A stretch of DNA of 64,000 nucleotides from Candidatus Levyibacteriota bacterium (GTDB lineage Bacteria; Patescibacteriota; Microgenomatia; Levybacterales; UBA12049), in NCBI GenBank assembly GCA_003173895.1, contig PJMG01000006.1:2820-66819 (forward strand), in the 5' to 3' direction. Positions 12,305 to 49,035 of the stretch are shown piece by piece (within the stretch, counting starts at the first letter, position 1; the number at the start of each line of letters is the position of its first letter). The notes beneath the pieces are model-generated. The model was not told the origin of the DNA. It saw only the letters and a program-made list of their open reading frames with translations, and searched no databases. Position numbers and translations under genes: made by a program.

Positions 12305-12412
12305 GTCATCCTGAGTGACCCGCTTCGCCGAAGCGATAGCGAGGCGAGAACGAAAAATCTTTATCTTGGAAAGACTTAAGTATATAGATCCTTCGCTGAG
12401 GCTCAGGATGAC
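12305..12412. repeat. 108-bp MITE-like element with perfect 11-bp terminal inverted repeats (GTCATCCTGAG / CTCAGGATGAC)
   Basis: read directly; left half is near-identical (rev-comp) to 21952-22007; fills the gap between convergent stops at 12290 and 12420. Confidence 0.75.
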
Positions 12413-12419
12413 ATATTAT

Positions 12420-12971
12420 TTATTTTTTCATTAAAGTGAAGTTGAGGTTAGAGGGGATTTCGTTTTTATTAGAATCTAACATTTTTAATTCTGTATTATT
12501 TACTTTTAAATAATATTCCGTCTGATTAGAGTTATTCGGATTTAGTTGATAAATCAAAGCATTAGGATTATTTTTCATTCCATTTGTATAAGTCCAATTC
12601 CCCACTTCATCAAAAGGTTTTACATTTCTACCTAAATAAACTAATTCCAAGCTATAAGTCGTGGGTTTTAAGGTATTAGGATTTTGATAAAGAGTTAACG
12701 TAGTTTGAATTCCTTCACAGTCAGCGCAAGGGAATTTACCAGTATAAATTCCTACTATATTCGAATTAGCATTTTTAGTAGGAGCAAAAATAGTTTTATG
12801 TGCTAAGAGGAAGATTAAAAATCCAAAAATAATAACTAGAACCACGATTAAAATCTTAAAATTCTTATTTAATTCTCTTTTTAGAAAATTATTATTATTT
12901 TGTTTAGAAATCACTTTCTTTTTAGCAGAAGAATTTTTAATATTTTTATTTTTTTTAATTTCCTTTTTCAT
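12420..12971 (-). CDS. NlpE N-terminal domain-like (copper-resistance/envelope-stress lipoprotein family) protein, membrane anchored
   Basis: motif GIYTGKFPCADCEGIQTTLTLY matches the NlpE_N Y-x-G-x-LPCADCxGI signature; N-terminal TM. Confidence 0.6.
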   Translation of the reverse strand: MKKEIKKNKNIKNSSAKKKVISKQNNNNFLKRELNKNFKILIVVLVIIFGFLIFLLAHKTIFAPTKNANSNIVGIYTGKFPCADCEGIQTTLTLYQNPNTLKPTTYSLELVYLGRNVKPFDEVGNWTYTNGMKNNPNALIYQLNPNNSNQTEYYLKVNNTELKMLDSNKNEIPSNLNFTLMKK

Positions 12972-13083
12972 TTGAACTTTTGCCTGTCCGCCTTAGCTTT
13001 AGCGATGGCGGAATTTTTTCATTTTAATCTCTATATTTATCAAAGTATATTTTTACATAATTTGCAATAGATAATTAGGAAAT

Positions 13084-13110
13084 GAGATTCTTCGTTTCAC
13101 TTAGAATGAC
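13084..13110. repeat. short unit of GTCATCCTGAG/CGAAGGATC hairpin repeat family
   Basis: GAGATTCTTCGTTTCACTTAGAATGAC. Confidence 0.6.
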
Positions 13111-13175
13111 AAAAGATAAAGCAAGTAGGAATGTACTTTTAAGTAGCAAAATACATGCTACGAGCTGAGTATAAA

Positions 13176-13202
13176 GATCCTTTCGCTGAAGCTCAGGATG
13201 AC
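13176..13202. repeat. short unit of GTCATCCTGAG/CGAAGGATC hairpin repeat family
   Basis: GATCCTTTCGCTGAAGCTCAGGATGAC, 26 nt downstream of the stop of 13228..14724. Confidence 0.65.
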
Positions 13203-13227
13203 GAAAATAGTTTATAATGACAAGAAT

Positions 13228-14724
13228 TTATTGGCAGGCGAATTGGACGGGTGGAGATAAGGGAGAAAAATTAGCAGAATTAGCTGAGGTAGAATAAGAA
13301 TATTGCGCATAATAAGTAGCACCAGTGGTAACGATATAGCCAGTAGTTAGAGATTGAGACTGAGTAGGATTAGCAGGATTAAGTGTAGTATTTAAAACCT
13401 GATTTCCTTGACTCGCGTATGTCATCACTAAATTATAGCTTTGAGCGTTTTGTAAATTAGACTGCGTATTATAATTTATAGTCACTTGCCAATTACCATT
13501 TTGCTGACCATTACAGGAAACATTAATAGTCGATCCACTAGGCGCTGATAACTGCTGCTGCGCATTAATAGTAAGTAAATTATTAGCAGATGGCGCTGTG
13601 AGAGTAAGAATATTTGATTGAGAGTAAGGCTGACCATTAGACCATAAATAAGCTTGAACATCATAAGACTGACCTGAATTAGCATTATTCCAAACCCAAC
13701 TTACCCCATCAGTGGCTGAAATATTTCCATTTATTTGATTAAAAGTACCTGTCCCTGTAGGACGAGTCGCTAACGTTATATAAGAATTAGGAGGAATGCT
13801 ACCATTTATATTTATAGTTCCTGAAATACCTGTAATAGCTGGTGCAGGTGGATTAGCTGTGGAACTAATAGCCAAATTAATATTGGATGAAGGCGCTGTT
13901 AAAGTTTGTAAACTACTACTGCTAATCAAAGATCCAGTACTACTTATTAAATTAGCTTGTATTTGATAAGTTTGACCTGAAATAGCACTACTCCACGACC
14001 AATTCACGCCATCTGTAGCAGACAGATTAGTCACTGCATTAATTAAGTTATTCGAATTATTTTGCTCAACCACTATATTAATATAGCTACCTGCAGGGAT
14101 ATAACCATCTAAATGAACATTTCCATTGATGGATGTGTTAGTAGTTTGAGGTGATTTTTGTTCTGAAACCAATGGTAAAACTATAGTATCAGCTGGTGCA
14201 GAGACAGAATTTATAGATGACTGTTCTATTACTTTTCCGCTTACCTTAATAGTGGCTTTAATATCATAGTTAGTACCACTATCAGCATCACTCCAATCCC
14301 AAGGAATATTACCACTTTGCGGCACTAATCCACTCACCACATCACTAAATTCAGCTTTACCACTAGGTCTAGCAGCTATAGCTAAGTACGAACCTGCTGG
14401 TGCATAACCTTCGAAATTTATTACACCAGAAATACTAGCAGGTGGCGCAGGTGTAGGTGTGATTATTTGTGTTTGATTTTTAGTAAAATATGTAAGACCA
14501 TTTTTACTATTAAAAAATATTAACCATACAATTGCGACTATTAAAATTATACTCACTACTCCTAAGAGTATAAGTAGTGGATTTAAAAACTTATTTTCCT
14601 TCTCTTCTTCTGTTTCAGTTGATGTGGAAGGTGGAGTTACTGGTGGAGGTGGTGTTTGTACAGGCTCCGTTGATATAATTGGAGCCGAATTATTTAAATT
14701 ATTATTTCCATCAGAGGGTTGCAT
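13228..14724 (-). CDS. membrane-anchored surface protein with three tandem ~95-aa repeats
   Basis: Pro-rich N-terminus, TM (LLILLGVVSIILIVAIVWLIFF), then three repeats each with GY.P.GSY.., W.W.., SG..Y.., ..LTAPS.. landmarks. Confidence 0.7.
   Translation of the reverse strand: MQPSDGNNNLNNSAPIISTEPVQTPPPPVTPPSTSTETEEEKENKFLNPLLILLGVVSIILIVAIVWLIFFNSKNGLTYFTKNQTQIITPTPAPPASISGVINFEGYAPAGSYLAIAARPSGKAEFSDVVSGLVPQSGNIPWDWSDADSGTNYDIKATIKVSGKVIEQSSINSVSAPADTIVLPLVSEQKSPQTTNTSINGNVHLDGYIPAGSYINIVVEQNNSNNLINAVTNLSATDGVNWSWSSAISGQTYQIQANLISSTGSLISSSSLQTLTAPSSNINLAISSTANPPAPAITGISGTININGSIPPNSYITLATRPTGTGTFNQINGNISATDGVSWVWNNANSGQSYDVQAYLWSNGQPYSQSNILTLTAPSANNLLTINAQQQLSAPSGSTINVSCNGQQNGNWQVTINYNTQSNLQNAQSYNLVMTYASQGNQVLNTTLNPANPTQSQSLTTGYIVTTGATYYAQYSYSTSANSANFSPLSPPVQFACQ
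13564..14433 (-). repeat. three tandem diverged domain repeats (coding)
   Basis: aa 98-186, 198-287 and 299-387 align: ISGVINFEGYAPAGSY / INGNVHLDGYIPAGSY / ISGTININGSIPPNSY etc. Confidence 0.7.
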
Positions 14725-14776
14725 TATTTAATAATGGCTGATTAACAACTGAAGTGTCAAGAGTTAAGAAAATTAC

Positions 14777-14974
14777 TTAAAGTACGTTTATTCTTTTATT
14801 AATTTTATGAGAATGAGATACTGTAGGTTTTATTAATTCTCTTCTTTTACATTCTTCATCATGTTCTAAAAGTAAATCACTCTTTTTAAGAAGTGAACTT
14901 GCGAAGCGTTCAGGTTTACCTGAAAAAACTCTTAGTTGTTTTCCACATTTTTGACAAATAAGTAAAGCTTGCAT
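14777..14974 (-). CDS. small hypothetical protein (possible Cys-pair motif)
   Basis: 65 aa; TTGACA-N17-TATATT promoter upstream on the minus strand (near 15010). Confidence 0.35.
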   Translation of the reverse strand: MQALLICQKCGKQLRVFSGKPERFASSLLKKSDLLLEHDEECKRRELIKPTVSHSHKINKRINVL

Positions 14975-15140
14975 AAAAGTATAAATAAAATATATCTTAA
15001 TAAGTATTCTATGTCAATAGATTGTCGCCAAAAAAATGACATCATTCAATGTGTGTGTGTTTTTATCTAGACAATAATTCTTTTAACAGTGAGTTATAAC
15101 ATGTACAAACATTTTTAATATAGTTATAATACCCTTATTC

Positions 15141-15926
15141 ATGAGTAAAATTATTGATTATCTAGCCAAACTCGAACTCTCAGATATGGAAGCCCGCTCT
15201 TATTTGAAACTCCTGGAAACTGGTCCTATAACTGTCAGTGAGTTTGCTCGCTTAATGAATATTAGACGAACTACAGCTTATCTTTATACAGATCCATTAG
15301 TAAGTAAGGGTTTAGTCATAAAAATAGTTAAAGGTAGTAAAAAACTTATCGCTCCTACACCTCCTGAAAACATAGAAGGGTTAATTGAACAGAAATTAAA
15401 TACAGCTCAATCTCTAAAAGAGACATTTCCCAAAATATTAGAAGAAATTAAGAATGAATATCAAATATTCCAAGATAATACTAATGTAGAAATTAAATTT
15501 TATAAGGGGATATATCATGCTAGAAATATTTATTTAGAAGCATTAAAAGCAGATGAATTTCGATCATACATGAAAATTGATAAAAGAGAACCTTTATTCC
15601 CTAGTAATGCTAGTGTGTTTAGTGAGGCTTTTAAAGAGAATAATAAACTTAAAATATGGGAGATTATTTATGATCCTGAATCTTCAGCAGTACCGTCTAA
15701 AGAATCTAGATCTCATATAGGTAGATATTTTTATAAATATATGCCAAAAGGTAAAAAATTAAGTTCTGAAGATATTCTTATTTATGATGGAAAAGTCGCT
15801 GTTATTAATTTTAGAGGAGGTAAAACTAGTATAGTTCTACAAAGTAAGGATTTATATAATAATTTTAAAGAAATATTTGAACTTTTATGGGATGTGCTTC
15901 CAGAACCTCCTAATCCAGATCTATAA
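15141..15926 (+). CDS. TrmB-family transcriptional regulator
   Basis: N-terminal wHTH LELSDMEARSYLKLLETGPITVSEFARLMNIRRTTAYLYTDPLVSKGLV. Confidence 0.65.
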   Translation: MSKIIDYLAKLELSDMEARSYLKLLETGPITVSEFARLMNIRRTTAYLYTDPLVSKGLVIKIVKGSKKLIAPTPPENIEGLIEQKLNTAQSLKETFPKILEEIKNEYQIFQDNTNVEIKFYKGIYHARNIYLEALKADEFRSYMKIDKREPLFPSNASVFSEAFKENNKLKIWEIIYDPESSAVPSKESRSHIGRYFYKYMPKGKKLSSEDILIYDGKVAVINFRGGKTSIVLQSKDLYNNFKEIFELLWDVLPEPPNPDL

Positions 15927-15940
15927 TATAATTTATTCAT

Positions 15941-21951: not shown

Positions 21952-22007
21952 GAGATTCTTCTCTCTCGCCTCGATTCGATTCGGCGAAGCGGGTCGTTCA
22001 GAATGAC
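21952..22007. repeat. long unit of GTCATCCTGAG/CGAAGGATC repeat family
   Basis: GAGATTCTTCTCTCTCGCCTCGATTCGATTCGGCGAAGCGGGTCGTTCAGAATGAC, close to rev-comp of 12305-12360; 7 nt downstream of the stop at 22015. Confidence 0.75.
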
Positions 22008-22014: not shown

Positions 22015-22605
22015 TTAGGAGGACATGGTGGTTTCTTCTCTAGCTGTTTTTAACATTTTTGCAAACCATATTAATTGTTCTAACATATTTTTAGCCGTAT
22101 CCTCTGCACTTTCAAAAGCACCAGGTTTTAAATTTCCATTCTCATCTACCATAGTCCAAGAAAAAGGAAAATGAACTCCATTTCGGATAGGTACCATTTG
22201 TAATTCTATGACTACTTGTCTTAATTGCTGTACGGCGCGAGTTCCTGCTGCAATTCCTCCATAACTTATAAAAGCTACTGGTTTATTATGCCATTGGGCA
22301 AAAACATAATCGATAGCATTTTTTAAAACCGCACTGTAACCATGATTATATTCAGGAGTTACCATAATATATGCATCACCCTCACCTATTTTTTCCGCCC
22401 ATTTGGCTGCTAAATCTAAAGTGTATTTTCCTTTAGAAGCATTTGGAGACATAGGTTCATTAAAAAAAGGAAGCGGCCAATTTCTTAAATCAATTAACTC
22501 CGCTTCTACTCCCTCCATTTTAGATAATTTCTCAAAAATCCACTTTGCAGGTTTTTCTGAAAATCTATTTGGTCGAGTCGATCCAATGATTACTTGAATT
22601 TTCAT
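22015..22605 (-). CDS. NADPH-dependent FMN reductase family protein
   Basis: MKIQVIIGSTRPNRFS.., YIMVTPEYNHGYSAVLKNAIDY. Confidence 0.8.
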   Translation of the reverse strand: MKIQVIIGSTRPNRFSEKPAKWIFEKLSKMEGVEAELIDLRNWPLPFFNEPMSPNASKGKYTLDLAAKWAEKIGEGDAYIMVTPEYNHGYSAVLKNAIDYVFAQWHNKPVAFISYGGIAAGTRAVQQLRQVVIELQMVPIRNGVHFPFSWTMVDENGNLKPGAFESAEDTAKNMLEQLIWFAKMLKTAREETTMSS

Positions 22606-32377: not shown

Positions 32378-32462
32378 GTCGTCGCGAGCGACTATAAGGA
32401 GCGTGGCCATCTTAATAGGATTATATGAGATTGCTTTGTAATTTTATGATCTCGCAATGAAG
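32378..32462. repeat. pair of inverted hairpin-repeat units (CGCGAG/CTCGCA variant)
   Basis: GTCGTCGCGAGCGACTATAAGGAGCGTGGCCATC ... GAGATTGCTTTGTAATTTTATGATCTCGCAATGAAG; 28 nt downstream of the stop at 32490. Confidence 0.5.
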
Positions 32463-32489: not shown

Positions 32490-33347
32490 TTATTTTGGTA
32501 AAGATGGGTAGTTAATTTTGATATCATTTGCGGTAAAAAATAAACATTGCCTAGCTAGTGCATTAGCGAAAACTCCTGCTTTTTTAAACGATTTAGTTTT
32601 ATAAAAAGAGTAAGCAAAACCTGCTGAAAAAATATCTCCAGAACCCACAGAATCGATTATATCTTTTTCTAACACAATCTCTGTAGGAATATTTAATATT
32701 TTTTTATTATCCAAGATTGTTACTCCTTTTTCTCCTTTAGTAATCGCAGTAATTATGTTATATTTCTTCGACCAATCTTTAGATAAATTTTCAATATTTG
32801 GGTAATCTGCTTCGGATAAAATCATTAAATCAAATAAAGGTAATATTTCATTTGCTTCTTTAAACATTCTTTTTTCGACCATGTTTTTTTTATTAATAGT
32901 TCTAAAATATCCTTGTGGTAATAGAACTTTTAGAGCATTTTTAGGAATTTTTTTTATTAAACTTTCAATATAGTTCGTTGAGAAGTTAGGTAAGATTGGA
33001 GAGATAAAAAGTATCTCAGTTTCTCCTAAAATTTCTTCAATTTGTGAATTTATCTCAACTGGATAGGCATAAATTTCATTGAACACTTTTTGTGTTCGCA
33101 TATTATTTTTCGTAATGTTTTCATAAACTAAAGTCTTAGACATTTTTTGACTTAAATTATATAAGGACTCAGTTTTATAAACTCTTAAAAAATCTTCGCC
33201 ATAAGAGGCTATTATTTTTACTTTACAATCCAGCAATTGTTTAAAGATTTTATCCATGAAGATCGCAGGACTGCCAGCTGCGATATACGAAGAATTTTCA
33301 GATTCATTTTTATCTATATCCACATGTCCTACTATAGTTATGTTCAT
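32490..33347 (-). CDS. PfkB-family carbohydrate kinase
   Basis: C-terminal signature DSVGSGDIFSAGFAY; 285 aa. Confidence 0.7.
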   Translation of the reverse strand: MNITIVGHVDIDKNESENSSYIAAGSPAIFMDKIFKQLLDCKVKIIASYGEDFLRVYKTESLYNLSQKMSKTLVYENITKNNMRTQKVFNEIYAYPVEINSQIEEILGETEILFISPILPNFSTNYIESLIKKIPKNALKVLLPQGYFRTINKKNMVEKRMFKEANEILPLFDLMILSEADYPNIENLSKDWSKKYNIITAITKGEKGVTILDNKKILNIPTEIVLEKDIIDSVGSGDIFSAGFAYSFYKTKSFKKAGVFANALARQCLFFTANDIKINYPSLPK

Positions 33348-33589: not shown

Positions 33590-33609
33590 GATCCTTCGTT
33601 CCACTCAGG
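33590..33609. repeat. truncated unit of the hairpin repeat family
   Basis: GATCCTTCGTTCCACTCAGG, 22 nt downstream of the HK stop (33632). Confidence 0.45.
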
Positions 33610-33631: not shown

Positions 33632-35086
33632 TCATAGAGATGATGAAACTGGGAGAGAAAAATAGAATGTAGAACCCTTACCTTCTGAACTTTCCACCCA
33701 CAGCTTACCTTTATGCAGTTTAATTATTTGACTAGAAATATATAAACCCAAACCTAATCCTGGATAAGTCTCATGACCTCGTACTTGATAAAATCGATCA
33801 AATATTTTCTTGTGAGCAATCTTAGGTATACCTATTCCAAAATCTTTCACATAAATTTCGATAGTATTTTTTTTAGGACGAGAACCGATAATAATATCTT
33901 TATCTGCTTTAGAATATTTAATAGCATTCGTAACTAAATTCGTAAGTACTTGTCTTATTCTTTCTTTATCAGCATACACATATAGTTTAGTATGCCAGTC
34001 TAATTTAAGCTTATGGAATGTGGTAGGTTGTAAGTCTTCTACTATTTCTTTCGCTAATTCTTTAACTAAGAACTTTTCCTTTTCTACTTTTAAACCACCT
34101 TTATAAAGTCTAGTAACGTCTAATAATTCTTTAACTAGATCTGTTAATTTATTTAGTTGAAGGTCAATTTTTTTAATTACTTTCTCTGATTCGGAATCCT
34201 GAGATTTTTGAAATCTCTTTTTCAAAATTTGCGCGAAAACAGTAGCAGATGTTAGAGGTGTTTTTAATTCATGAGAAGCCATATTAATAAAATCATCTTT
34301 TTTCTCCTCTAATTCTCTTTGAATAGTAATATCATTTATAATTTCTGCAGCAGCAATTATTTTTCCTTTCTTGTTAAGAATAGGAGCAGCACTAACTTGT
34401 AAAAATGTTTTTTTTCCATCTTTTTTTTGAATAGTTATGTTTTCGTTTTTTAATTTTTTCCCTTTTAATGCTGTTAATATAGGAGCTTGAGAAGCATTTA
34501 ATGGTTTATTATTAATTTCCGCATTTAAAAGTAATTCTTCACCATATATAAATTCTGTAGGAATTTTCATATCAATTATATTTTCCAGTTGTTTATTTTG
34601 GTGAATAACTTTACCAGTAGCATCGGAAATAATTATTCCTACTGGTAGTTGTTCTACAATAGTTTCCAACTGCTTTCTGCCATCTGCTTCTTTTTCGATT
34701 AAACTATCTACTGTTTGTTTTAATCCTCCAATTATCGCAGAAAGGCCAAAATATATTAACCCCAAATAAATGGTTGTTTCAACCCCAGCTATAAATTTTC
34801 CATTAGTATAACTTCTAGTTTCAATAATATATAAATAATATAAAATGGTTAAAGTACTAGTCGTAAAACCTCCTATTACTCCATTTCTAAGTGAGAAATA
34901 AATAATTAAGATTACATTAACAAAAATGATATAAGTTCCAACTATGTTAGGATCTTTTAAGATTTTATAAGATAAAAATTCCGATAAAATAAAAACAATA
35001 ATATTAAAGATAAGTGGAAAAAGAAAAGAATAATTTTTTTTACCCAGTTGCTTAATTGGATTTAAATAATCCAATATTTTTATCAT
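33632..35086 (-). CDS. sensor histidine kinase (multi-TM N-terminus, PAS, HisKA, HATPase_c)
   Basis: H-box MASHELKTPLTS; N box LTNLVTNAIKYS; G boxes DFGIGIP, GLGLGLYISSQIIKLHKGKLWVES. Confidence 0.9.
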   Translation of the reverse strand: MIKILDYLNPIKQLGKKNYSFLFPLIFNIIVFILSEFLSYKILKDPNIVGTYIIFVNVILIIYFSLRNGVIGGFTTSTLTILYYLYIIETRSYTNGKFIAGVETTIYLGLIYFGLSAIIGGLKQTVDSLIEKEADGRKQLETIVEQLPVGIIISDATGKVIHQNKQLENIIDMKIPTEFIYGEELLLNAEINNKPLNASQAPILTALKGKKLKNENITIQKKDGKKTFLQVSAAPILNKKGKIIAAAEIINDITIQRELEEKKDDFINMASHELKTPLTSATVFAQILKKRFQKSQDSESEKVIKKIDLQLNKLTDLVKELLDVTRLYKGGLKVEKEKFLVKELAKEIVEDLQPTTFHKLKLDWHTKLYVYADKERIRQVLTNLVTNAIKYSKADKDIIIGSRPKKNTIEIYVKDFGIGIPKIAHKKIFDRFYQVRGHETYPGLGLGLYISSQIIKLHKGKLWVESSEGKGSTFYFSLPVSSSL

Positions 35087-36263: not shown

Positions 36264-37136
36264 ATGAATGAATTTAATTTCGGGCAGTTTTTAAAAAAAT
36301 ACGGTAGTGAGAAAAAATGTTTGGATTACCTCATAAAACTTAAGTGTCCTGATGGTATTTACTGCAAACAATGTGAGAGGGTAAAAAAGTTTACAAAGAT
36401 TAGAACAAGAACTGTCTATCAATGCTCTTGTGGATATCAAGTAAGTCCACTAGTTGGAACAATCTTTGAAAAAAGTAGTACACCTTTAACTTACTGGTTT
36501 TACGCAATCTTCTTGATGTCTAATACCAGATCAGGCATATCAGCAAAACAGTTACAAAGAGAGCTTGGAGTAACTTACAAAACAGCCTGGAGGATGTTTA
36601 AACAAATAAGAATCTTGATGCAATACACGACAGATAAACTTAAAGGAACGATTGAAGTAGATGAAACTTATGTAGGAGGTAAAGGGTGGAATAGAAGATA
36701 TATTCCTAATTTTAATGAGAAACCGAAAGAAGTAGTTTTCGGGATGGTAGAAAGAAATGGGAATGCGAAGCTACTTCATTTACCAGGTAATGGTAGAAGA
36801 CAATTAGTCGAAGAAATTCAAAAAAACATAGATAAAGGCTCCTATATTATCAGTGATCAATATGCAGCATACAATTACGTAACAAAGATTGGTTATACCC
36901 ATGATTTTGTAACTCATCGAAAAGAGTATGTTAGTAAAAAAGATCCGAATGTTTACACACAAAATATCGAGAGCATCTGGTCTCACTTAAAGAGAGGAAT
37001 CTTTGGAGTTTATCGAAAGACTTCCAAGAAATACTTACAGAGTTACGTTAACGAATTTGCTTTTAGATATAACTATAGAAATCAAAATATGTTTGATATA
37101 TTGATTAAACAGTCAATTAATTCTAAAATTAAATAA
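36264..37136 (+). CDS. IS1595-family (ISXO2-like) DDE transposase with N-terminal zinc ribbon
   Basis: CPDGIYCKQCERV..YQCSCGYQVS zinc ribbon; VEVDETYVGGK; ISDQYAAYNYV; YTQNIESIWSHLKRGIFGVYRKTSKKYLQSYVNEFAFRYNYRN. Confidence 0.85.
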   Translation: MNEFNFGQFLKKYGSEKKCLDYLIKLKCPDGIYCKQCERVKKFTKIRTRTVYQCSCGYQVSPLVGTIFEKSSTPLTYWFYAIFLMSNTRSGISAKQLQRELGVTYKTAWRMFKQIRILMQYTTDKLKGTIEVDETYVGGKGWNRRYIPNFNEKPKEVVFGMVERNGNAKLLHLPGNGRRQLVEEIQKNIDKGSYIISDQYAAYNYVTKIGYTHDFVTHRKEYVSKKDPNVYTQNIESIWSHLKRGIFGVYRKTSKKYLQSYVNEFAFRYNYRNQNMFDILIKQSINSKIK

Positions 37137-40682: not shown

Positions 40683-40725
40683 GTCATCCTGAGTTTCAAC
40701 GAAGGATCTATATTTTCAGAATGAC
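40683..40725. repeat. hairpin-repeat units in the ArsR-AHSA1 intercistronic gap
   Basis: GTCATCCTGAGTTTCAACGAAGGATC plus CAGAATGAC; 3 nt downstream of the ArsR stop. Confidence 0.65.
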
Positions 40726-40727: not shown

Positions 40728-41051
40728 TTATTTATCTCGTTTGGTTTTTTCTAACATTTTTTCTAATCTCTCTAATCTATCTTCCCAAAGGTTTCTATAT
40801 TTCTCAAGCCAAGCATCCAAATCTTTAAAAACTTTAGGTGAAAGATTATAAATTCTTTTATTTTTTATAGGTTTTACTTCTACTATTCCTGCATCTGCGA
40901 GAATTTTTAGATGTTTAGAAGTCTGTGGTTGGTTAAGTTTTAATTTTTCTGCTATTTGATTTACTGTGTATGGATTTTTACTAAGAAGTTCAACTATGTT
41001 TAATCTATTCGGCTCCCCAAGTGTATTAAATATAGCAGGATTAATGGTCAT
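40728..41051 (-). CDS. ArsR/SmtB-family transcriptional regulator
   Basis: FNTLGEPNRLNIVELLSKNPYTVNQIAEKLKLNQPQTSKHLKILADAGIV; start moved to ATG 41051 because the track N-terminus (TTG at 41087) lies on the promoter. Confidence 0.85.
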   Translation of the reverse strand: MTINPAIFNTLGEPNRLNIVELLSKNPYTVNQIAEKLKLNQPQTSKHLKILADAGIVEVKPIKNKRIYNLSPKVFKDLDAWLEKYRNLWEDRLERLEKMLEKTKRDK

Positions 41052-41057
41052 AATTAA

Positions 41058-41087
41058 TATATACCATATTAGGAATATTCCTGTCAA
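41058..41087 (-). promoter_or_regulatory. ArsR promoter with embedded 12-bp perfect palindrome AGGAATATTCCT (41071-41082)
   Basis: minus strand TTGACA (41082-41087), 18-nt spacer containing the palindrome, TATATA (41058-41063), 6 nt to ATG 41051. Confidence 0.5.
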
Positions 41088-41957: not shown

Positions 41958-42040
41958 AGCAAAAGTATTATAATCTTAAATTAAGATATTATCATTATTA
42001 AAAAACTGCCAGCAAAGCCAGCAGTTTTAATATTAAGAAC

Positions 42041-42115
42041 GAGATCCTTCGACTCCTTAGGTTTCACTCAGGATAAGTTCGCTCGGGATGACAATTTTGA
42101 ACAAGACAGAATGAC
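42041..42115. repeat. hairpin-repeat units downstream of the YCII-like gene
   Basis: GAGATCCTTCGACTCCTTAGGTTTCACTCAGGATAAGTTCGCTCGGGATGAC ... CAGAATGAC; ends 4 nt from the stop at 42119. Confidence 0.65.
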
Positions 42116-42118
42116 AAT

Positions 42119-42463
42119 TTATTGTTTAATCATTCCATTCATATCCCACATTTCATGAACATCGATTTCTCCACCTGGTCTATCTAAATGTGGATTATCT
42201 TTTAAGAGATTAACTGCAGTATCAATATCTTCTGCTTGGACGATATCATAGGCCACTAGTGATGCATCTCCTGGCATAACATCACTTTTAGTTAATTTCA
42301 TCGCGTGTGTCACAGGACTTCCTTTATCCACTACAGCATCCCCTACCTTAGCGAACCAATCCATCCATGGCTTCATACCAGCTTGCATTTGTTCTGGTGT
42401 AGCACTTTGCATTTTTTCTCGCTCTTCAGCTGTGGCAAAAAATAAAACTAAAAATTTTTTCAT
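42119..42463 (-). CDS. YCII/DGPF-related small protein (weak)
   Basis: 114 aa, MKKFLVLFFATAEE..SATPEQMQAGMKPWMDWFAKVG; SD GAGGTGA 6 nt upstream. Confidence 0.45.
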   Translation of the reverse strand: MKKFLVLFFATAEEREKMQSATPEQMQAGMKPWMDWFAKVGDAVVDKGSPVTHAMKLTKSDVMPGDASLVAYDIVQAEDIDTAVNLLKDNPHLDRPGGEIDVHEMWDMNGMIKQ

Positions 42464-43823: not shown

Positions 43824-44414
43824 TTAGACCTTGTCAATATTTGATTTGTAGTATAAAAGTATATTTCCATTTTTAAACTCGCGAGTTTTAGTAAGTTTTA
43901 AATTTAATTTTTCCTCTAATCCTTCAAATAATTTCGCTCCTTTATTAATAACTACCGGATTTATCATAATTCTAAATTCATCGATTAAGCCTAGTTTAGT
44001 TAAGGAAACTAATAATTTATTACTCCCTAAAATTGCTATGGATTTACCTTCTGTATTTTTTAGTTTTTTAATTTCTTCTTTTACATTTTCAGAAATTAGT
44101 TTCACATTTTTCCAATTTTCTGTTTCCGTTACATGACCTAGTGTACTTGAAACTACTACTTTAGGAAAAGTATTCATTAAGTGTGCAACTATGGCATCAT
44201 TAGGATCTGCAGACTCATTAGGTTGATAAGTAGGCCAAAAAGATTCCATCAGCTGATACGTGATCTTACCAAATAAAATAGTGTCTGCTTCCTTCATTTG
44301 GTCCGCAGCAAATTCGTTAAATTCAGCGTCCACATTATGCCAAGATAAATCATGATCCACTCCTTCAAAAAATCCATCTAAAGAGATCATCATGAATAAA
44401 AATATTTTCCTCAT
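43824..44414 (-). CDS. dihydrofolate-reductase-like (RibD C-terminal domain) protein
   Basis: MRKIFLFMMISLDGFFEG..ILFGKITYQLMESFWP; start moved to ATG 44414 (TATATT 6 nt upstream); the track extension covers repeat and promoter DNA. Confidence 0.8.
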   Translation of the reverse strand: MRKIFLFMMISLDGFFEGVDHDLSWHNVDAEFNEFAADQMKEADTILFGKITYQLMESFWPTYQPNESADPNDAIVAHLMNTFPKVVVSSTLGHVTETENWKNVKLISENVKEEIKKLKNTEGKSIAILGSNKLLVSLTKLGLIDEFRIMINPVVINKGAKLFEGLEEKLNLKLTKTREFKNGNILLYYKSNIDKV

Positions 44415-44467
44415 AAAACTAATATAGCAAAATATAAATGTCTTTGCGAACAAGTTTCTAAACTGGT

Positions 44468-44515
44468 GAAGCAATCTTATCGAGATCGCCACGTCGTAAA
44501 CTCCTCGCGAAGACG
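44468..44515. repeat. hairpin-repeat unit (CTCGCGAAGAC variant)
   Basis: GAAGCAATCTTATCGAGATCGCCACGTCGTAAACTCCTCGCGAAGACG. Confidence 0.45.
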
Positions 44516-44831: not shown

Positions 44832-44837
44832 TAAACT

Positions 44838-45263: not shown

Positions 45264-45282
45264 ATATTTATTAATTTGGATC

Positions 45283-45873: not shown

Positions 45874-45942
45874 AATATTATCATAACATATGAGTCAAAC
45901 TAGATATTTACAATCTATAAAATTTTCTGCGATACTAATTCT

Positions 45943-46536
45943 ATGCACAGAAGAAAATTAAATACTTCTTCAAACACTTTTCTAAAACCTTTTTGGATTA
46001 CTTTAGGCGTTATTATTCTTTTAATTATTTTTTTTATCTTAGGATATCATTTTAGTCGGAAACCATCTTCTACTTCATCTCAAATGTTTGCTGCGCCAAC
46101 TAACACTTATTTATTTGATATAGGAAATAAAAAAATTACGCTAAATAACCATTTATTAGCTTTTAAAAATAGTTCATATAAAGCCAGTCATGGATCTGAA
46201 GTAGCTACTATAACTAACTTAACTATTAATCCCTCAGGAACTAGAGCTACAGCTATATTAATAGATAGCCCTGGAGGAACAGGAACATTTTATTATCTAA
46301 TAGGTGGAGTGTTAAAAAATGGTCAGGAAATATATTCTAAGCCTGTGCTTTTAGGAGATAGAATTAAAATAAAATCACTAAGTGTATATGAACCACAGGC
46401 TCATGATAATGGAATAATTACTGTTCAATATTTAGACAGACCAGCGAGTGCACCTATGCTAACTATGCCTACAATACAAATATTAAAACAATTTGCCTTT
46501 GAGGACAATGGAAATTTAATAGAAGTACTTCATTAA
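45943..46536 (+). CDS. membrane-anchored hypothetical protein
   Basis: 197 aa with N-terminal TM; TTACAA-N17-GATACT 6 nt from the ATG; immediately precedes the MacA-like gene. Confidence 0.55.
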   Translation: MHRRKLNTSSNTFLKPFWITLGVIILLIIFFILGYHFSRKPSSTSSQMFAAPTNTYLFDIGNKKITLNNHLLAFKNSSYKASHGSEVATITNLTINPSGTRATAILIDSPGGTGTFYYLIGGVLKNGQEIYSKPVLLGDRIKIKSLSVYEPQAHDNGIITVQYLDRPASAPMLTMPTIQILKQFAFEDNGNLIEVLH

Positions 46537-46541
46537 ATACT

Positions 46542-47711
46542 ATGATGGGTGAAATTATAGAAAGAATCAAAAAGTATAAAATAATTATAATCGTTCTTAT
46601 CATTTTAGTATTAGTAATTATCTTTAATTTACTTCTAAATTCGTCTTCTACCAATACTATTTACACAGTTAAGCGAGAAAATTTAGTAAATACAGTACTC
46701 ATAAATGGCACTTACACTATAGCTTCTCAAACTTCTGTAAACTCTCCCACTAATGGCGTTATTACTAAATTATATGTTAAAAATGGAACTGAAGTTAAAA
46801 AAGGCGATCCACTTTTTTATGTAAATAGCAGCGCCACTGCGGATCAAATAAAAACAGCCTATGCTAACTATTTAGCAGCAAATAGTCAACTACAAGCAGA
46901 TAATGCTATGTTATATTCTTTACAATCTACTATGTATTCTGCATGGCAGGCCTACATTAATCAAGCTACTAATGCTACTTATCAGAACAATGATGGTAGT
47001 CCTAATAGTACTAACAGGATACAGACTACTTTTACTGTTCCACAGTCTGCATGGTTAGCTGCTGAGGCGAACTACAAAAACCAACAGGTTGTGATTAATA
47101 AAGATCAAGCTGCTCTTTCAAGTGCTTTACAAGCATATAACGAAACTCAAAGTGTAACTGTTACTGCTCCTGCTGCAGGCCAAATAGTTAATTTATCAGC
47201 TGCTCTTAATGATCAAGTATCTGCAGTTTCTTCACAAACTTCTCCTTCAAACAATACTACAATTTCCCCAGTTTTAATAATTGCTGATTTTAGTAATCCA
47301 GTTATAATTTCCTCTGTCGATCAAGTTAATATTCCGCGTCTTAAAATAGGTCAAAAAGCTAGCATAGTTTTTGATGCTTTACCTAATCAAACTTTTACAG
47401 GATCAGTTTCAAGTATTGATACTGCTGGTACTAAAGTACAAGGAACTGTAGATTTTAATGTAAATATTACAGTTAATAATGTCACTTCAATGATTCGACC
47501 TAATATGACTACCTCGGTGACTATAGAGACCGGTCGAGCTGATAATGTTTTAACTATTCCTAATGATGCTATTATTTCTAAAAATGGGAAAACTTATGTG
47601 GAGCTAGAAAATAAAAATCTTTCAGAAGTTACACTCGGGCTTAAAGGACTTACTAAAACAGAAGTTATTAATGGATTATCATCAGGAGATAGAATCATTG
47701 AACAACAATAA
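46542..47711 (+). CDS. efflux periplasmic adaptor (HlyD/MacA family)
   Basis: lipoyl-like GVITKLYVKNGTEVKKGDPLF, long Gln/Ala coiled-coil hairpin, VTAPAAGQIVNL, ALPNQTFTGSVSSID. Confidence 0.75.
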   Translation: MMGEIIERIKKYKIIIIVLIILVLVIIFNLLLNSSSTNTIYTVKRENLVNTVLINGTYTIASQTSVNSPTNGVITKLYVKNGTEVKKGDPLFYVNSSATADQIKTAYANYLAANSQLQADNAMLYSLQSTMYSAWQAYINQATNATYQNNDGSPNSTNRIQTTFTVPQSAWLAAEANYKNQQVVINKDQAALSSALQAYNETQSVTVTAPAAGQIVNLSAALNDQVSAVSSQTSPSNNTTISPVLIIADFSNPVIISSVDQVNIPRLKIGQKASIVFDALPNQTFTGSVSSIDTAGTKVQGTVDFNVNITVNNVTSMIRPNMTTSVTIETGRADNVLTIPNDAIISKNGKTYVELENKNLSEVTLGLKGLTKTEVINGLSSGDRIIEQQ

Positions 47712-47792
47712 GATTAGTTAACAGTGATTTCTGAAATGAATAAAAAAACACATTCTGCGAACTTAAAAAGAGAAATATAAAATTAATAATTT

Positions 47793-49010
47793 ATGCATGA
47801 TCTAAGAACAGCTGCTTTTATCGCTTATAAATCGATTCTAAAAGGAAATAAATCTACATTTATACTTTTAATTTTTATCCTTTCACTATCTTTCTTAAAT
47901 ATGATGTTTATCTCAGGAATTCTAAATGGTTTAGAAAATTTATTTTATCGAACCATTATTAATACTTACGCTTCAGACGTTGCTGTAAATCCGCAGGAAA
48001 AACCTGAATTAAAACAATTTATTTTAAATCAAAATGAAGTTCAAGCCGAAATCCAAAGTATTCCTGGAGTTATAGCTACTACTCGTCGTTATTCTCTAGC
48101 TGGATCCATTTCATTTGATAAAGATAAAAATGGACAGTTTAAAAATGTTTCTGGTGCGATTATAGGTATAGATCCTACTCAAGAGCAGAAAGTTTTAACC
48201 TTAAATAATTTAATAATTTCTGGACATTATTTATCTGATACTGATTCTGATCAAATTTTACTTAGCTCAGCATTAGCAGGAGGATATGGAATTCCAGCTC
48301 CGAGTGATTTAGGTGGAGCTAGAGTCGGAGATAAAGTGCAGATTACCTATTCTAATGGTGTAATGAAAACATATACTATTAAAGGAATTTATAATGATGC
48401 TATAGGTATATTTGAGACATTTATTACCGCTCGAGAAGCAGAATCAGTTCTAAATGTTTATAACAGTGCCTCACAAATTTTGGTAAAAACAGATATAGAT
48501 CATACCCCTATTACTACATATCAAAAGAGAATCCAGCAGCTTCAATCTAATTTAAAAATTCAAACTTATTTAGATTTACTTGGTTCATTTAAATCATTTT
48601 TAGATGCACTTAATTTAATTTCAGTCATCGTTAGTGCTATTAGTGTGTTAGTCGCTGCGATTACTATTTTCGTCATTATTTACGTAAATGCGATTAATAA
48701 ACGTAAACAAATCGGAATTTTAAAAGCTATTGGCATCAGACAAACTATCATCATTTGGTCATATATTTTCCAATCACTTTTTTATGCGCTTTTTGGTGTG
48801 ATTATAGGTTCCTTTATCGTTTTTCTTATAATAACTCCACTTCTGAATAAATATCCTATTAATGTAGAATTTGGCTATCTTTATTTAGTTCATAATCCAA
48901 TAACCATTATAGGTGGTATTATTAGTATGTTTTTAGCCGGATTACTAGCAGGATATTTACCAGCTAGAATTGTCGCTCGCCAAAATATAATTAAAGCTAT
49001 TTGGGGCTAA
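47793..49010 (+). CDS. ABC transporter permease, FtsX/MacB type
   Basis: N-terminal TM, large extracytoplasmic domain, C-terminal FtsX 3-TM with RKQIGILKAIGIRQ. Confidence 0.8.
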   Translation: MHDLRTAAFIAYKSILKGNKSTFILLIFILSLSFLNMMFISGILNGLENLFYRTIINTYASDVAVNPQEKPELKQFILNQNEVQAEIQSIPGVIATTRRYSLAGSISFDKDKNGQFKNVSGAIIGIDPTQEQKVLTLNNLIISGHYLSDTDSDQILLSSALAGGYGIPAPSDLGGARVGDKVQITYSNGVMKTYTIKGIYNDAIGIFETFITAREAESVLNVYNSASQILVKTDIDHTPITTYQKRIQQLQSNLKIQTYLDLLGSFKSFLDALNLISVIVSAISVLVAAITIFVIIYVNAINKRKQIGILKAIGIRQTIIIWSYIFQSLFYALFGVIIGSFIVFLIITPLLNKYPINVEFGYLYLVHNPITIIGGIISMFLAGLLAGYLPARIVARQNIIKAIWG

Positions 49011-49035
49011 AGTCCTGAGCGCAGTCGAAGGAATC
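49011..49035 (+). repeat. truncated hairpin-repeat unit forming the intercistronic spacer
   Basis: AGTCCTGAGCGCAGTCGAAGGAATC directly after the stop at 49010; its GAAGGA sits 6-7 nt before ATG 49038. Confidence 0.6.

What the first reader, a model, noticed from the sequence alone, without database searches (positions are those of the whole stretch)
12305..49035. Hairpin repeat family (GTCATCCTGAG..CGAAGGATC and variants) positioned immediately 3' of stop codons in a fixed orientation
Copies lie at 12305-12412, 13084-13110, 13176-13202, 21952-22007, 33590-33609, 40683-40725, 42041-42115 and 49011-49035. Variants lie at 32378-32462, 44468-44515 and (intragenic) 4645-4703. Most start 1-28 nt after a stop codon, for example 49010, 40728, 42119, 22015, 13228, 33632 and 32490. 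In the sense of the upstream gene they read GTCATCCTGAG...CGAAGGATC, which can pair ATCCT with AGGAT. That matches REP/BIME-like 3'-UTR elements (terminator, mRNA stabiliser or protein-binding site) better than random debris.
Basis: partly seen in the sequence, partly recalled or inferred. Interest (0 to 1): 0.55.

Follow-up and report, generated by a model that had tools for sequence, protein, structure and literature searches.

The report
GTCAT hairpin repeats: Ssn-nuclease motifs
The small hairpin repeats behind genes in this low-GC (Patescibacteria-like) contig are real, but they belong to a known superfamily (CGTC-tagged REPs, also called Ssn-related motifs) that serves as single-stranded-DNA recognition sites for tiny GIY-YIG nucleases, so they are not a new RNA signal.

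Summary
The repeats exist at the stated coordinates and are far above chance (GTCATCCTGAG: 6 hits against 0.48 expected; four covariance-model hits at E<=4e-5). Each unit has an unpaired (C/T)GTC tag, a 5-bp stem starting AT, a conserved GA..GA internal loop, a 2-bp apical stem with a 3-4 nt loop, then an unpaired C. Covariation supports the stem.

The same 25-nt motif occurs in nearly every bacterial phylum and in viral contigs. It flanks small single-domain GIY-YIG genes: 70 of 80 metagenomic loci, at 20-fold local enrichment. This matches the Ssn/SRM system (Chenal 2025) and the CGTC-tagged REPs (Di Nocera 2013: dRS3, RPE-4/-6). Position just behind stop codons, inverted dimers and in-frame intragenic copies are already published for those families.

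The published SRM search string misses this sequence class (0/70), so it is a new member of a known kind.

The "fixed sense orientation" largely reflects dimer geometry (tags outward, 114 against 22). Across taxa, unpartnered copies show no bias (19 against 15).

No copy looks like a terminator, and most stems are weak as RNA. The window holds no ssn gene, so activity in this genome is untested.

The parts
4645..4668 (+). Copy K, GTCATTCCCGCGAAGGCGGGAATC. Classical NTS / CGTC-1-type unit with an 8-bp stem and 4-nt loop. Left arm of a tags-outward doublet lying in frame inside ORF 3202..5613.
   Evidence: Matches the published SRM search string (2 hits against 0.04 expected). Identical to the Neisseria NTS consensus at 26 of 28 positions. 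CM E 0.05. DNA fold -8.9 kcal/mol, z -4.8.
4679..4703 (-). Copy L, GTCATCCCCGACCTGATCGGGGATC. 8-bp stem, 5-nt loop. Right arm of the intragenic doublet.
   Evidence: Matches the published SRM string. CM E 0.09. Fold z -5.0. The two closest homologues lack the insertion.
12305..12359 (+). Copy A. Long variant with a ~36-nt apical insert (GACCCGCTTCGCCGAAGCGATAGCGAGGCGAGA) and a decayed 3' arm (AAAAATC). Starts 14 nt after the stop of ORF 9756..12290. Left arm of a doublet.
   Evidence: Sequence. 37 nt at 86% complementary to copy E (I1).
12387..12412 (-). Copy B, GTCATCCTGAGCCTCAGCGAAGGATC. Intact. Starts 7 nt after the stop of the NlpE-domain ORF 12420..12971(-). Right arm of a doublet.
   Evidence: CM 41.7 bits, E 1e-7..
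13086..13110 (-). Copy C, GTCATTCTAAGTGAAACGAAGAATC. Intact. The apical GTGAAAC is the AT-rich equivalent of GCGAAGC.
   Evidence: CM E 5e-6. The same loop occurs in the copy flanking the Saccharibacteria ssn gene in L125.
13176..13202 (-). Copy D, GTCATCCTGAGCTTCAGCGAAAGGATC. Intact. Starts 25 nt after the stop of ORF 13228..14724(-).
   Evidence: CM E 4e-5..
21954..22007 (-). Copy E. Long variant with the same apical insert as A. Basal stem intact (ATTCT/AGAAT). Starts 7 nt after the stop of the FMN-reductase ORF 22015..22605(-).
   Evidence: CM E 3 because of the insert.
32378..32411 (+). Copy M1, GTCGTCGCGAGCGACTATAAGGAGCGTGGCCATC. Decayed unit of the GCGAG stem class. Left arm of a doublet.
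   Evidence: Sequence. The related ATTGCGAG..GCAATC class flanks Ssn genes in L269, L276 and L284.
32430..32462 (-). Copy M2, TTCATTGCGAGATCATAAAATTACAAAGCAATC. The tag is mutated (TTC). Starts 27 nt after the stop of the PfkB ORF 32490..33347(-). Right arm of a doublet.
   Evidence: Sequence. Fold pairs ATTGC with GCAAT.
33590..33609 (-). Copy F, CCTGAGTGGAACGAAGGATC. 5'-truncated: the tag and the AT pair are lost. Lies 22 nt after the stop of the histidine-kinase ORF 33632..35086(-).
   Evidence: CM E 0.3, model positions 8-24 only.
40683..40708 (+). Copy G, GTCATCCTGAGTTTCAACGAAGGATC. Intact. Antisense to both flanking genes. Left arm of a doublet.
   Evidence: CM 36.8 bits, E 1e-6.
40711..40725 (-). 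Copy H, the half site GTCATTCTGAAAATA. Starts 2 nt after the stop of the ArsR-type ORF 40728..41087(-). Right arm of a doublet.
   Evidence: Sequence. CM E 5.
42041..42115 (-). Copy I. Composite of one half site (GTCATTCTG..) and a nested unit (GTCATCCCGAGCGAACTT-ATCCTGAGTGAAACCTAAGGAGTCGAAGGATC). Starts 3 nt after the stop of ORF 42119..42463(-). My own reading of the sequence finds a G-U-containing hairpin plus T-run just downstream at about 41994-42031. The terminator scan did not flag it.
   Evidence: Sequence. CM E 0.14. for the scan.
44485..44515 (-). Copy N, CGTCTTCGCGAGGAGTTTACGACGTGGCGATC. GCGAG-class unit in a divergent intergenic / 5' region. The adjacent 44468-44476 (+), GAAGCAATC, looks like a 3' half site.
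   Evidence: Sequence. The RibD_C domain of ORF 43824..44492 starts only at residue 28, so the real start codon is probably downstream of the repeat.
49011..49035 (+). Copy J, AGTCCTGAGCGCAGTCGAAGGAATC. Decayed, with AT lost after the tag. Fills the 27-nt gap between FtsX-like ORF 47793..49010 and ABC ATPase ORF 49038..49709.
   Evidence: CM E 0.04. Pfam.

Best explanation
These are about 15 copies at 11 loci (7 intact, the rest decayed) of CGTC/TGTC-tagged palindromic repeats, also called Ssn-related motifs (SRM).

Unit anatomy, 5' to 3' on the functional strand:
- an unpaired (C/T)GTC tag;
- a 5-bp stem that always begins A-T, T-A;
- a conserved GA..GA internal loop, which probably forms tandem sheared G.A pairs;
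- a 2-bp apical stem closed by a GNA or 4-nt loop;
- an unpaired C(T).
Copies K and L instead have the plain 8-bp stem of the Neisseria NTS.

Mechanism. The unit works as DNA. When that strand is single-stranded (replication, transformation, conjugation, repair) it folds into the hairpin. A ~95-residue single-domain GIY-YIG nuclease of the Ssn family then recognises it. In the characterised homologues, Ssn needs the C after the palindrome to bind and the GTC tag to cut a few bases upstream. It ignores dsDNA, RNA and the complementary strand.

In genomes that carry the system, the nuclease gene sits between two copies with tags facing outward. Gene-less doublets with the same geometry, and their single-arm remnants, are scattered through the chromosome.

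Why they sit behind stop codons. The first few tens of bases behind a stop codon are where insertions do least harm. That explains the stop-proximal position and the excess in convergent over divergent spacers. Stop-proximal arms of doublets read sense because of the doublet geometry.

Shown here: existence, architecture, covariation, pan-bacterial spread, linkage to GIY-YIG genes elsewhere, position, and one in-frame intragenic insertion.
Inferred: ssDNA cleavage by a cognate Ssn for this sequence class, how the repeats spread, and whether the system is still active in this genome.
For: Structure:
- In loci retrieved by protein similarity (so unbiased for stem sequence), the third stem pair is T-A 92, C-G 45, G-C 9, A-T 2 out of 161 unique copies.
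- On alignment A2, 95.3% of cells pair against 85.0 +/- 0.7 in shuffles (0 of 500 reach it).
- There are 57 double-sided changes against 13 expected. Slid registers pair only 18-46%.
- GA..GA lies just inside the stem in 139 of 155 copies, without being imposed by the search.
- The apical loop is CGNAGC in most copies. That gives d(GCGNAGC), which I recall as the very stable GNA-triloop DNA mini-hairpin of Hirao and Yoshizawa (from memory).

Linkage to the nuclease:
- The motif flanks GIY-YIG ORFs (Pfam PF01541, E 3e-16 and 5e-17) on both sides in L156 (Gracilibacteria), L125 (Saccharibacteria) and L138 (Cyclobacteriaceae).
- Of 80 metagenomic loci encoding homologues, 70 have a GTCAT-hairpin-ATC within 300 nt and 46 have one on both sides.
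- Density is 4.45 per kb near the gene against 0.22 per kb beyond 600 nt.
- Upstream copies are mostly sense and downstream copies mostly antisense to ssn, that is, tags outward.
- All stem classes seen in the window (TCCT, TTCT, TTGC, long-stem NTS-like) occur next to this Ssn clade.

Literature:
- The NTS is CGTCATTCCCGCGMAVGCGGGAATCYRG. GTC is needed for cleavage and the C after the palindrome for binding. SsnA cuts ssDNA only. The NTS-ssnA-NTS architecture is described (PMC11893778).
- CGTC REPs have stems starting AT, one dominant inverted dimer type, positions under 20 bp from ORF 3' ends, and intragenic copies. They include dRS3 and RPE-4/-6 (PMC3733652).

Window:
- K and L match the published SRM string.
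- All 4 doublets have tags outward.
- Across taxa, convergent spacers outnumber divergent ones 41 to 14.
Against: - No Ssn/GIY-YIG gene is found in the 64 kb by tblastn at E<=10, by motif scans or by Pfam on about 70 ORFs. The rest of the genome could not be retrieved.
- The main class does not match the published SRM search string: 0 of 70.
- I could not directly test that the flanking GIY-YIG proteins fall in cd10448 or are homologous to N. meningitidis SsnA. NCBIfam and PDB gave nothing.
- Nearest-neighbour energies for the main class are weak as DNA, -1 to -3.5 kcal/mol. The structure therefore rests on covariation and on non-canonical G.A and GNA motifs.
- The 5-of-5 sense orientation of single-orientation loci in this window is not predicted by the model. 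It is marginal, p about 0.03-0.06.
- About 40 kb from two other Patescibacteria carry no copies, so presence is patchy.
Confidence: 0.75

Rival explanations
1. RNA-level 3'-UTR elements. The hairpins are transcribed at the ends of mRNAs and act as terminators, 3'-exonuclease barriers or RNA-protein binding sites. Di Nocera et al. also suggested it for REPs in general.
For: In the window, 9 of 11 loci start 0-27 nt after a stop codon. All five single-orientation intergenic loci are sense. Across taxa, copies lie nearer a stop than a start (130 against 80). Within 30 nt of a stop, sense outnumbers antisense 40 to 20, p=0.013.
Against: The cross-taxon bias disappears for copies without an inverted partner (19 against 15, p=0.6). 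Dimer geometry explains it. No copy has a T-run and none overlaps a terminator-like site. My own reading finds a hairpin plus T-run downstream of copy I, which the scan did not flag. RNA folding energies are weak. There is no G-U excess. SsnA does not bind RNA. Copy G and the left arms of doublets are antisense. Rfam has no match.
Confidence: 0.12
2. Inert relics. The copies here are decaying remnants of a past expansion and the genome no longer encodes a partner nuclease, so they have no present function.
For: About half of the copies are truncated, tag-mutated or have mismatched stems (A, F, H, I, J, M1, M2, N). No ssn gene lies in 64 kb. Copies differ from each other in loops and stems. Two related Patescibacteria loci lack the repeats.
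Against: Seven copies keep tag, stem and 3' C intact. A and E share a specific 37-nt apical insert at 86%, which suggests fairly recent copying. Several stem classes co-exist. Only about 64 kb of the genome was seen.
Confidence: 0.3
3. REPIN/MITE-type elements mobilised by a transposase: a RAYT/IS200-like Y1 enzyme, or the IS1595 transposase present in the window.
For: Palindromic units with an unpaired tag, organised as inverted doublets, resemble REPINs. An IS1595-family transposase ORF lies at 36264..37136.
Against: The tag is (C/T)GTC, not GTAG. No Y1 transposase was found among the ORFs scanned. No SRM-like inverted repeats surround the IS1595 gene. No target-site duplications flank the four doublets. 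Di Nocera et al. found that CGTC repeats never flank transposase genes. In my 80 loci the repeats flank GIY-YIG genes.
Confidence: 0.04

Closest known systems
Ssn-related motifs (SRM) / Neisseria Transformation Sequence with SsnA GIY-YIG ssDNases (Chenal et al., Nat Commun 2025, PMC11893778)
   Same: Directional hairpin repeat with a GTC tag 5' of the palindrome and a C right after it. The palindrome starts AT. Copies are mostly extragenic. They flank a ~95-aa single-domain GIY-YIG gene on both sides. Distribution across bacteria is very wide. Copies K and L are near-identical to the NTS itself.
   Different: The main class here has a 5-bp stem, a GA..GA internal loop and a mini-hairpin instead of a continuous 8-bp stem. 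The published search string HGTCWYN(0-2)YYVSBRHN(0-5)WNVSBRGN(0-2)RNCYNB misses it (0 of 70 copies; 1 of 80 Ssn loci). Its cognate enzyme is uncharacterised. No ssn gene lies in this window.
CGTC-tagged REPs, families CGTC-1 to -4, including Neisseria dRS3 and Rickettsia RPE-4/RPE-6 (Di Nocera et al., BMC Genomics 2013, PMC3733652)
   Same: CGTC or TGTC tag. Stems begin with complementary A and T. There is a short unpaired 3' tail. One inverted dimer type dominates. Copies lie within about 20 bp of ORF 3' ends in unidirectional and convergent spacers. In-frame intragenic dimers encode about 20-30 residues. There is no transposase.
   Different: The described families have 8-9 bp continuous stems and 4-5 nt loops, and were found in 5 phyla. 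The class here has an interrupted stem and a triloop or tetraloop. It occurs in Patescibacteria, Chloroflexota, Acidobacteriota, Firmicutes and others, and in viral contigs.
GTAG-tagged REP / REPIN with RAYT (Y1 HUH) transposases
   Same: Works alike in outline. A tagged ssDNA hairpin is recognised by a small dedicated nuclease whose single-copy gene is bracketed by the repeats. Gene-less inverted doublets are scattered behind genes.
   Different: Different tag (GTAG). Different enzyme fold (HUH/Y1 rather than GIY-YIG). REP sequences are species-specific, whereas this 25-nt consensus is shared across phyla.
Bpu elements of Cycas/Ginkgo mitochondria (Chaw et al. 2008; consensus quoted in PMC8297867)
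   Same: A 36-bp dispersed element that shares the 18-nt core TCCTGAGCGTAGCGAAGG (basal stem, GA, GCGTAGC, GA, stem) with the bacterial consensus.
   Different: It has no GTCAT tag. It has AAGG terminal direct repeats and occurs in an organelle. The relationship is untested and could be convergence on a stable mini-hairpin.

Membership tests
Ssn-related motifs (SRM/NTS) | Semi-palindrome of 20-50 nt able to form a hairpin | tested here: met
   Covariation in stem pairs 3-5 and in the apical pairs. The predicted fold gives the same structure.
Ssn-related motifs (SRM/NTS) | Conserved unpaired GTC immediately 5' of the palindrome, giving orientation (required for cleavage in N. meningitidis) | tested here: met
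   GTC is invariant in alignment A2. It is present in copies A, B, C, D, E, G, H, I, K, L, M1 and N. It is lost or mutated in F, J and M2.
Ssn-related motifs (SRM/NTS) | C immediately 3' of the palindrome (most critical base for SsnA binding) | tested here: met
   ATC is invariant in A2 and present in all intact window copies.
Ssn-related motifs (SRM/NTS) | Match to the published degenerate search string | tested here: not met
   Only K and L match. None of the 70 copies of the CCTGAG class match, and 1 of 80 Ssn loci. I treat the string as a search heuristic derived from 29 genomes, not as the definition. This is the reason for 'new member' rather than 'already known'.
Ssn-related motifs (SRM/NTS) | Repeats bracket a single-domain ~95-aa GIY-YIG (Ssn) gene | tested here: met
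   Met for the sequence class in other genomes: L125, L138, L156; 70 of 80 loci, 46 of 80 on both sides, 20-fold local enrichment; Pfam GIY-YIG. In this window no such gene is present, so it is unresolved for this genome.
Ssn-related motifs (SRM/NTS) | Flanking GIY-YIG protein belongs to CDD cd10448 / is homologous to N. meningitidis SsnA | not testable with these tools
   No CDD library and no SsnA sequence were available. NCBIfam and PDB searches were uninformative. Size, single domain and gene context fit.
Ssn-related motifs (SRM/NTS) | Cognate Ssn cleaves the motif as ssDNA only, one strand only | not testable with these tools
   Needs biochemistry. Shown only for four homologues in PMC11893778.
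CGTC-tagged REPs (Di Nocera 2013) | Unpaired CGTC (or TGTC) tag at one end | tested here: met
   The base before GTC is T or C in every tagged window copy, and mostly T or C in A2.
CGTC-tagged REPs (Di Nocera 2013) | Stem begins with complementary A and T in first and second position | tested here: met
   Pairs 6-28 (A-T) and 7-27 (T-A) occur in 70 of 70 sequences. They were partly imposed by the retrieval pattern. They are also present in K and L.
CGTC-tagged REPs (Di Nocera 2013) | Continuous stem of 8-9 bp with loop of 4-5 nt (families CGTC-1 to -4) | tested here: not met
   Met by K and L only. The main class has 5 bp, then GA..GA, then 2 bp, then a 3-4 nt loop. It is therefore a further family of the superfamily.
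CGTC-tagged REPs (Di Nocera 2013) | One inverted dimer type predominates | tested here: met
   Tags outward in 114 cases against 22 inward across 240 loci. All 4 window doublets have tags outward.
CGTC-tagged REPs (Di Nocera 2013) | Located close to the 3' ends of ORFs, in unidirectional and convergent spacers | tested here: met
   Window gaps are 0-27 nt. Convergent 41 against divergent 14. Nearer a stop 130 against nearer a start 80.
GTAG REP / REPIN-RAYT | GTAG-type tag and a RAYT (Y1 HUH) gene bracketed by the repeats | tested here: not met
   The tag is (C/T)GTC. No Y1 transposase was found among the window ORFs scanned. The repeats bracket GIY-YIG genes instead.
Intrinsic terminators | G+C-rich hairpin followed by a T/U run | tested here: not met
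   None of the 12 terminator-like sites in 12-23 kb and 32-50 kb coincides with a copy. The tails are CTATAT, CTCATT and similar.
MITEs | Terminal inverted repeats flanked by a target-site duplication and matching an IS in the genome | tested here: not met
   No direct repeats flank the four doublets. The IS1595 gene in the window has no related ends.
Rfam RNA families | Score at or above a family's gathering threshold | tested here: not met
   The only window hit is the unrelated DUF3800-IX. Nothing credible appears at E<=10 over 12280-13230.

The most novel reading that the evidence does not exclude
GTCAT-YCT-GA-[mini-hairpin]-GA-RAT-C is an unrecognised, essentially pan-bacterial and phage-borne class of Ssn substrates, with its own Ssn clade and a new cleavage specificity. 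Its 18-nt core recurs in the Bpu dispersed elements of Cycas and Ginkgo mitochondria. On this reading, one ssDNA-hairpin / GIY-YIG system would have moved between bacterial phyla, viruses and an organelle. A weaker alternative is that in this lineage the copies have been co-opted as transcript-end or ribosome-binding elements. That would explain the 5-of-5 sense orientation and copy J supplying an SD-like AAGGA.
Probability: 0.15. Interest if true: 0.6.

Novelty: new member of a known kind. Interest (0 to 1): 0.33.

Why it matters
1. The finding is real but belongs to a described system. It should not be pursued as a new RNA element.
2. The published SRM search string misses a very widespread class and its Ssn clade (0 of 70 copies; 66 of 80 loci against 1 of 80). 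Published counts of SRM-bearing genomes are therefore likely underestimates, especially outside Proteobacteria, for example in Patescibacteria, Chloroflexota, Acidobacteriota and Firmicutes.
3. Ssn enzymes are being developed as site-specific ssDNA cutters. This class offers a well-defined candidate substrate/enzyme pair, for example the L125 or L156 protein with GTCATTCTGAGYGAARCGAAGAATC.
4. These repeats create spurious ORFs and in-frame insertions (VILSEAKDL, VIPAKAGI and similar). Annotators should recognise them.

Tried and rejected
- Rfam at gathering threshold on the window, and at E<=10 on 12280-13230, found nothing related.
- Literature search by literal motif strings returned only primers and the Cycas Bpu paper. 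A search on 'GCGAAGC hairpin' was not useful.
- Retrieving the source contig by exact protein look-up failed three times. The contig is an NCBI record of 76,714 bp that is not in that index.
- For orthologous-spacer comparison I used the Nramp gene next to copy E. The best relatives are about 80% identical, but the two contigs examined are not syntenic and carry no repeats or ssn gene. No presence/absence test of insertion was possible.
- A loose hairpin scan (GTC[AG]T plus any 5 pairs including G-T) found fewer hits than in shuffles (41 against about 70) and was abandoned for stricter definitions.
- The terminator hypothesis was rejected.
- Derivation from an IS1595 MITE was rejected.
- A hammerhead-like reading (GUC ... 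CUGAG ... CGAA) was considered and dropped. The core lacks CUGAUGA and GAAA, and Rfam finds no ribozyme.
- A link between the DUF3800-IX RNA and the repeats was rejected on sequence.
- NCBIfam and PDB gave no naming for the flanking GIY-YIG proteins.

Full report
**Observation.** The window is about 31% G+C and has no tRNA genes.

The motif GTCATCCTGAG occurs 6 times with up to 1 mismatch, against 0.48 expected. The 3' half CGAAGGATC alone is not enriched. Reading each listed locus gives about 15 units at 11 loci:
- K 4645-4668(+) and L 4679-4703(-)
- A 12305-12359(+) and B 12387-12412(-)
- C 13086-13110(-) and D 13176-13202(-)
- E 21954-22007(-)
- M1 32378-32411(+) and M2 32430-32462(-)
- F 33590-33609(-)
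- G 40683-40708(+) and H 40711-40725(-)
- I 42041-42115(-)
- N 44485-44515(-)
- J 49011-49035(+)

A strict architectural scan (GTCAT, at least 5 Watson-Crick pairs, then ATC) finds 9 sites against 1.8 +/- 1.2 in dinucleotide shuffles. A covariance model built only from copies in other genomes finds B, G, C and D at E between 1e-7 and 4e-5. It finds J, K, L, I and F at E between 0.04 and 0.3, and nothing new. Gaps between stop codons and the 5' tag are 0-27 nt at nine loci.

**Anatomy.** The units share this layout: an unpaired (C/T)GTC; a stem that begins A-T, T-A; then, in the main class, three more pairs (YCT/AGR); GA; a 2-bp apical stem with a 3-4 nt loop; GA; and an unpaired C, usually followed by T.
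- K and L have a plain 8-bp stem instead.
- A and E carry the same ~36-nt apical insert (37 nt, 86% alike).
- F, H, J, M2 and the 3' arm of A are decayed.
- Four loci are inverted doublets with both tags facing outward (A/B, K/L, M1/M2, G/H).

**Spread.** It also hit the limit in one-genome-per-species GTDB contigs. The genome hits include Patescibacteria (Paceibacterota, Saccharibacteria, Gracilibacteria, Komeilibacteria), Chloroflexota, Acidobacteriota, Bacteroidota, Firmicutes, Nitrospirota, Planctomycetota, Verrucomicrobiota, Cyanobacteria-related Melainabacteria and several proteobacterial classes.

About 120 chance matches would be expected in the whole 596-Gb collection for equiprobable bases (my arithmetic). 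The hits are not chance, for three reasons:
- Many loci carry 2-4 copies, often as inverted pairs.
- The Y and R positions covary: T-A plus C-G account for 310 of 319 copies.
- The free loop is CGNAGC in more than half.

**Structure.** I avoided circularity by using 80 loci retrieved through a protein, not through the repeat. There the third stem pair is T-A 92, C-G 45, G-C 9, A-T 2 out of 161 unique copies, and the fifth is T-A 146, C-G 9.

On a 70-sequence alignment, 95.3% of cells pair against 85.0 +/- 0.7 in shuffles (0 of 500 reach it). There are 57 double-sided changes against 13 expected, and only 18-46% pairing when the 3' partner is slid. The apical 2-bp stem also covaries (G-C 58, A-T 7). 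GA..GA lies just inside the basal stem in 139 of 155 copies without being imposed.

G-T pairs are as rare as A-C mismatches. The apical GCGNAGC is, from my memory of Hirao and Yoshizawa, the unusually stable GNA-triloop DNA mini-hairpin. Nearest-neighbour energies are weak for the main class (RNA -2 to -8, DNA -1 to -3.5 kcal/mol) and strong for K and L.

**Identity.** Two papers already describe this superfamily.

Di Nocera et al. 2013 (PMC3733652) defined 'CGTC-tagged REPs'. Their features:
- The tag is CGTC or TGTC.
- Stems start with complementary A and T.
- There is a short 3' tail.
- One dominant inverted dimer type.
- Positions under 20 bp from ORF 3' ends in unidirectional and convergent spacers.
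- In-frame intragenic copies.
- No associated transposase.
- The family includes Neisseria dRS3 and Rickettsia RPE-4/-6.

Chenal et al. 2025 (PMC11893778) showed that the oriented dRS3 form is the recognition site of SsnA. They call this form the NTS, CGTCATTCCCGCGMAVGCGGGAATCYRG. SsnA is a 94-aa single-domain GIY-YIG nuclease that binds and cuts only single-stranded DNA. The GTC is needed for cleavage and the C after the palindrome for binding. It has no activity on dsDNA, RNA or the reverse strand. Homologues across bacteria are bracketed by 'Ssn-related motifs' (SRM).

Copy K equals the NTS at 26 of 28 positions. K and L are the only window matches to the published SRM search string.

**Does the main class belong?** The published string matches 0 of 70 copies of the CCTGAG class. 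The gene linkage still holds:
- tblastn with a GIY-YIG ORF found next to the repeats in L156 picked up further homologues in L125 and L138. Each is flanked on both sides by the motif. Both intact proteins hit Pfam GIY-YIG.
- A metagenome scan with their alignment returned 80 loci. Of these, 70 have a GTCAT-hairpin-ATC within 300 nt and 46 have one on both sides.
- Density is 4.45 per kb near the gene against 0.22 per kb further away.
- Stems are TTCT 100, TCCT 64, TGCT 14, TTGC 6. Upstream copies are mainly sense and downstream copies mainly antisense, so tags face outward.
- The ATTGCGAG class (as in M and N) and a long-stem NTS-like copy also occur beside this clade.

The class is therefore a further SRM/CGTC family with its own Ssn clade. 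I could not test cd10448 membership or homology to Neisseria SsnA directly.

**Position and orientation.** I used crude ORF calls on 240 loci, so stop positions are reliable but start positions less so.
- Copies prefer convergent over divergent spacers (41 against 14).
- They lie nearer a stop than a start (130 against 80).
- Within 30 nt of a stop, sense copies outnumber antisense 40 to 20 (p=0.013).
- Splitting by the presence of an opposite-strand partner within 150 nt shows that dimer geometry explains the bias. Dimers have tags outward 114 against 22. Partnered copies give 21 sense against 5 antisense. Unpartnered copies give 19 against 15 (p=0.6).
- In the window, the five loci with single-orientation copies are all sense (p about 0.03). 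That is suggestive but not robust.
- No copy coincides with a terminator-like site.

**This genome.** The closest named relatives of two window proteins are Patescibacteria: Nramp at 79% identity, and O-antigen-ligase-like proteins from Levybacteria, Saccharimonadales and Microgenomates.

No GIY-YIG or Y1 transposase gene is present in the window (Pfam). The remaining 12.7 kb of the contig and the rest of the genome could not be fetched. Whether the copies still have a partner here is open. Half of them are visibly decayed, but A and E share a specific insert, which argues for relatively recent copying.

**Verdict.** It is a member of a known superfamily whose stop-proximal position is already published and whose demonstrated partner acts on ssDNA, not RNA. 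The one modestly new point is that this pan-bacterial sequence class and its Ssn clade fall outside the published SRM search definition.

Noticed in passing
window 5737-5806 (+), next to ORF 5809..6426 (-): Rfam DUF3800-IX RNA motif (61 bits, gathering score 36.8). It abuts the stop codon of a DUF3800 gene (Pfam E 4e-17) but lies on the opposite strand, so it is convergent with the gene. It is unrelated in sequence to the hairpin repeats.
   Followed up: partly
window 4645-4703 inside ORF 3202..5613 (+): The K/L doublet is an in-frame insertion of about 20 residues (VIPAKAGIYAEGSPIRSGMT). It sits in a variable loop between the Wzy_C domain and the TPR region of an O-antigen-ligase-like protein. 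The two closest homologues (59% identity) lack it. This mirrors Rickettsia RPE-4/-6 insertions.
   Followed up: yes
window 49011-49035 (+): Decayed copy J fills the whole 27-nt gap between the FtsX-like and ABC-ATPase genes of a HlyD-FtsX-ABC operon. Its 3' arm (CGAAGGAATC) lies where the Shine-Dalgarno of the downstream gene should be. This is a possible exaptation of the repeat as a ribosome-binding site.
   Followed up: no
literature: Cycas/Ginkgo mitochondrial Bpu element consensus AAGGTTATCCCTTTCCTGAGCGTAGCGAAGGGAAGG: It shares an 18-nt core, TCCTGAGCGTAGCGAAGG, with the bacterial consensus GTCATCCTGAGCGNAGCGAAGGATC. Homology versus convergence on the GA/GCGNAGC mini-hairpin was not tested.
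   Followed up: partly
window 12305-12359 and 21954-22007: Two copies 9.6 kb apart carry the same ~36-nt insert in the apical loop (GACCCGCTTCGCCGAAKCGAWWSCGAGGCGAGA), which is itself rich in short palindromes. It is either a nested second hairpin element or an extended apical stem variant.
   Followed up: partly
window 36264-37136 (+): IS1595-family (ISXO2-like DDE) transposase ORF. No clear terminal inverted repeats were found and none relate to the hairpin family.
   Followed up: partly
window 12985-13015: GC-rich hairpin GTCCGCC-N14-GGCGGA just upstream of the start of the NlpE-domain gene 12420..12971(-). It begins with GTC but lacks the AT pair and the 3' C. It overlaps a chance-level Ocean-V hit (E 2.2). 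Its identity is unclear.
   Followed up: no
window 51212-59404 (-): A run of about ten minus-strand ORFs, including proteins of 543 and 565 aa, has no Pfam match. The 543-aa protein has no relative at E<=1e-50 among 5.8 billion clustered proteins other than itself.
   Followed up: no
L001-L120 (IMG/VR viral contigs): The exact motif is common in contigs classified as viral: 155 copies in 120 stretches, with the scan truncated. None of these stretches encodes an Ssn homologue. Whether phages carry the sites as passengers, decoys or targets is unknown.
   Followed up: partly
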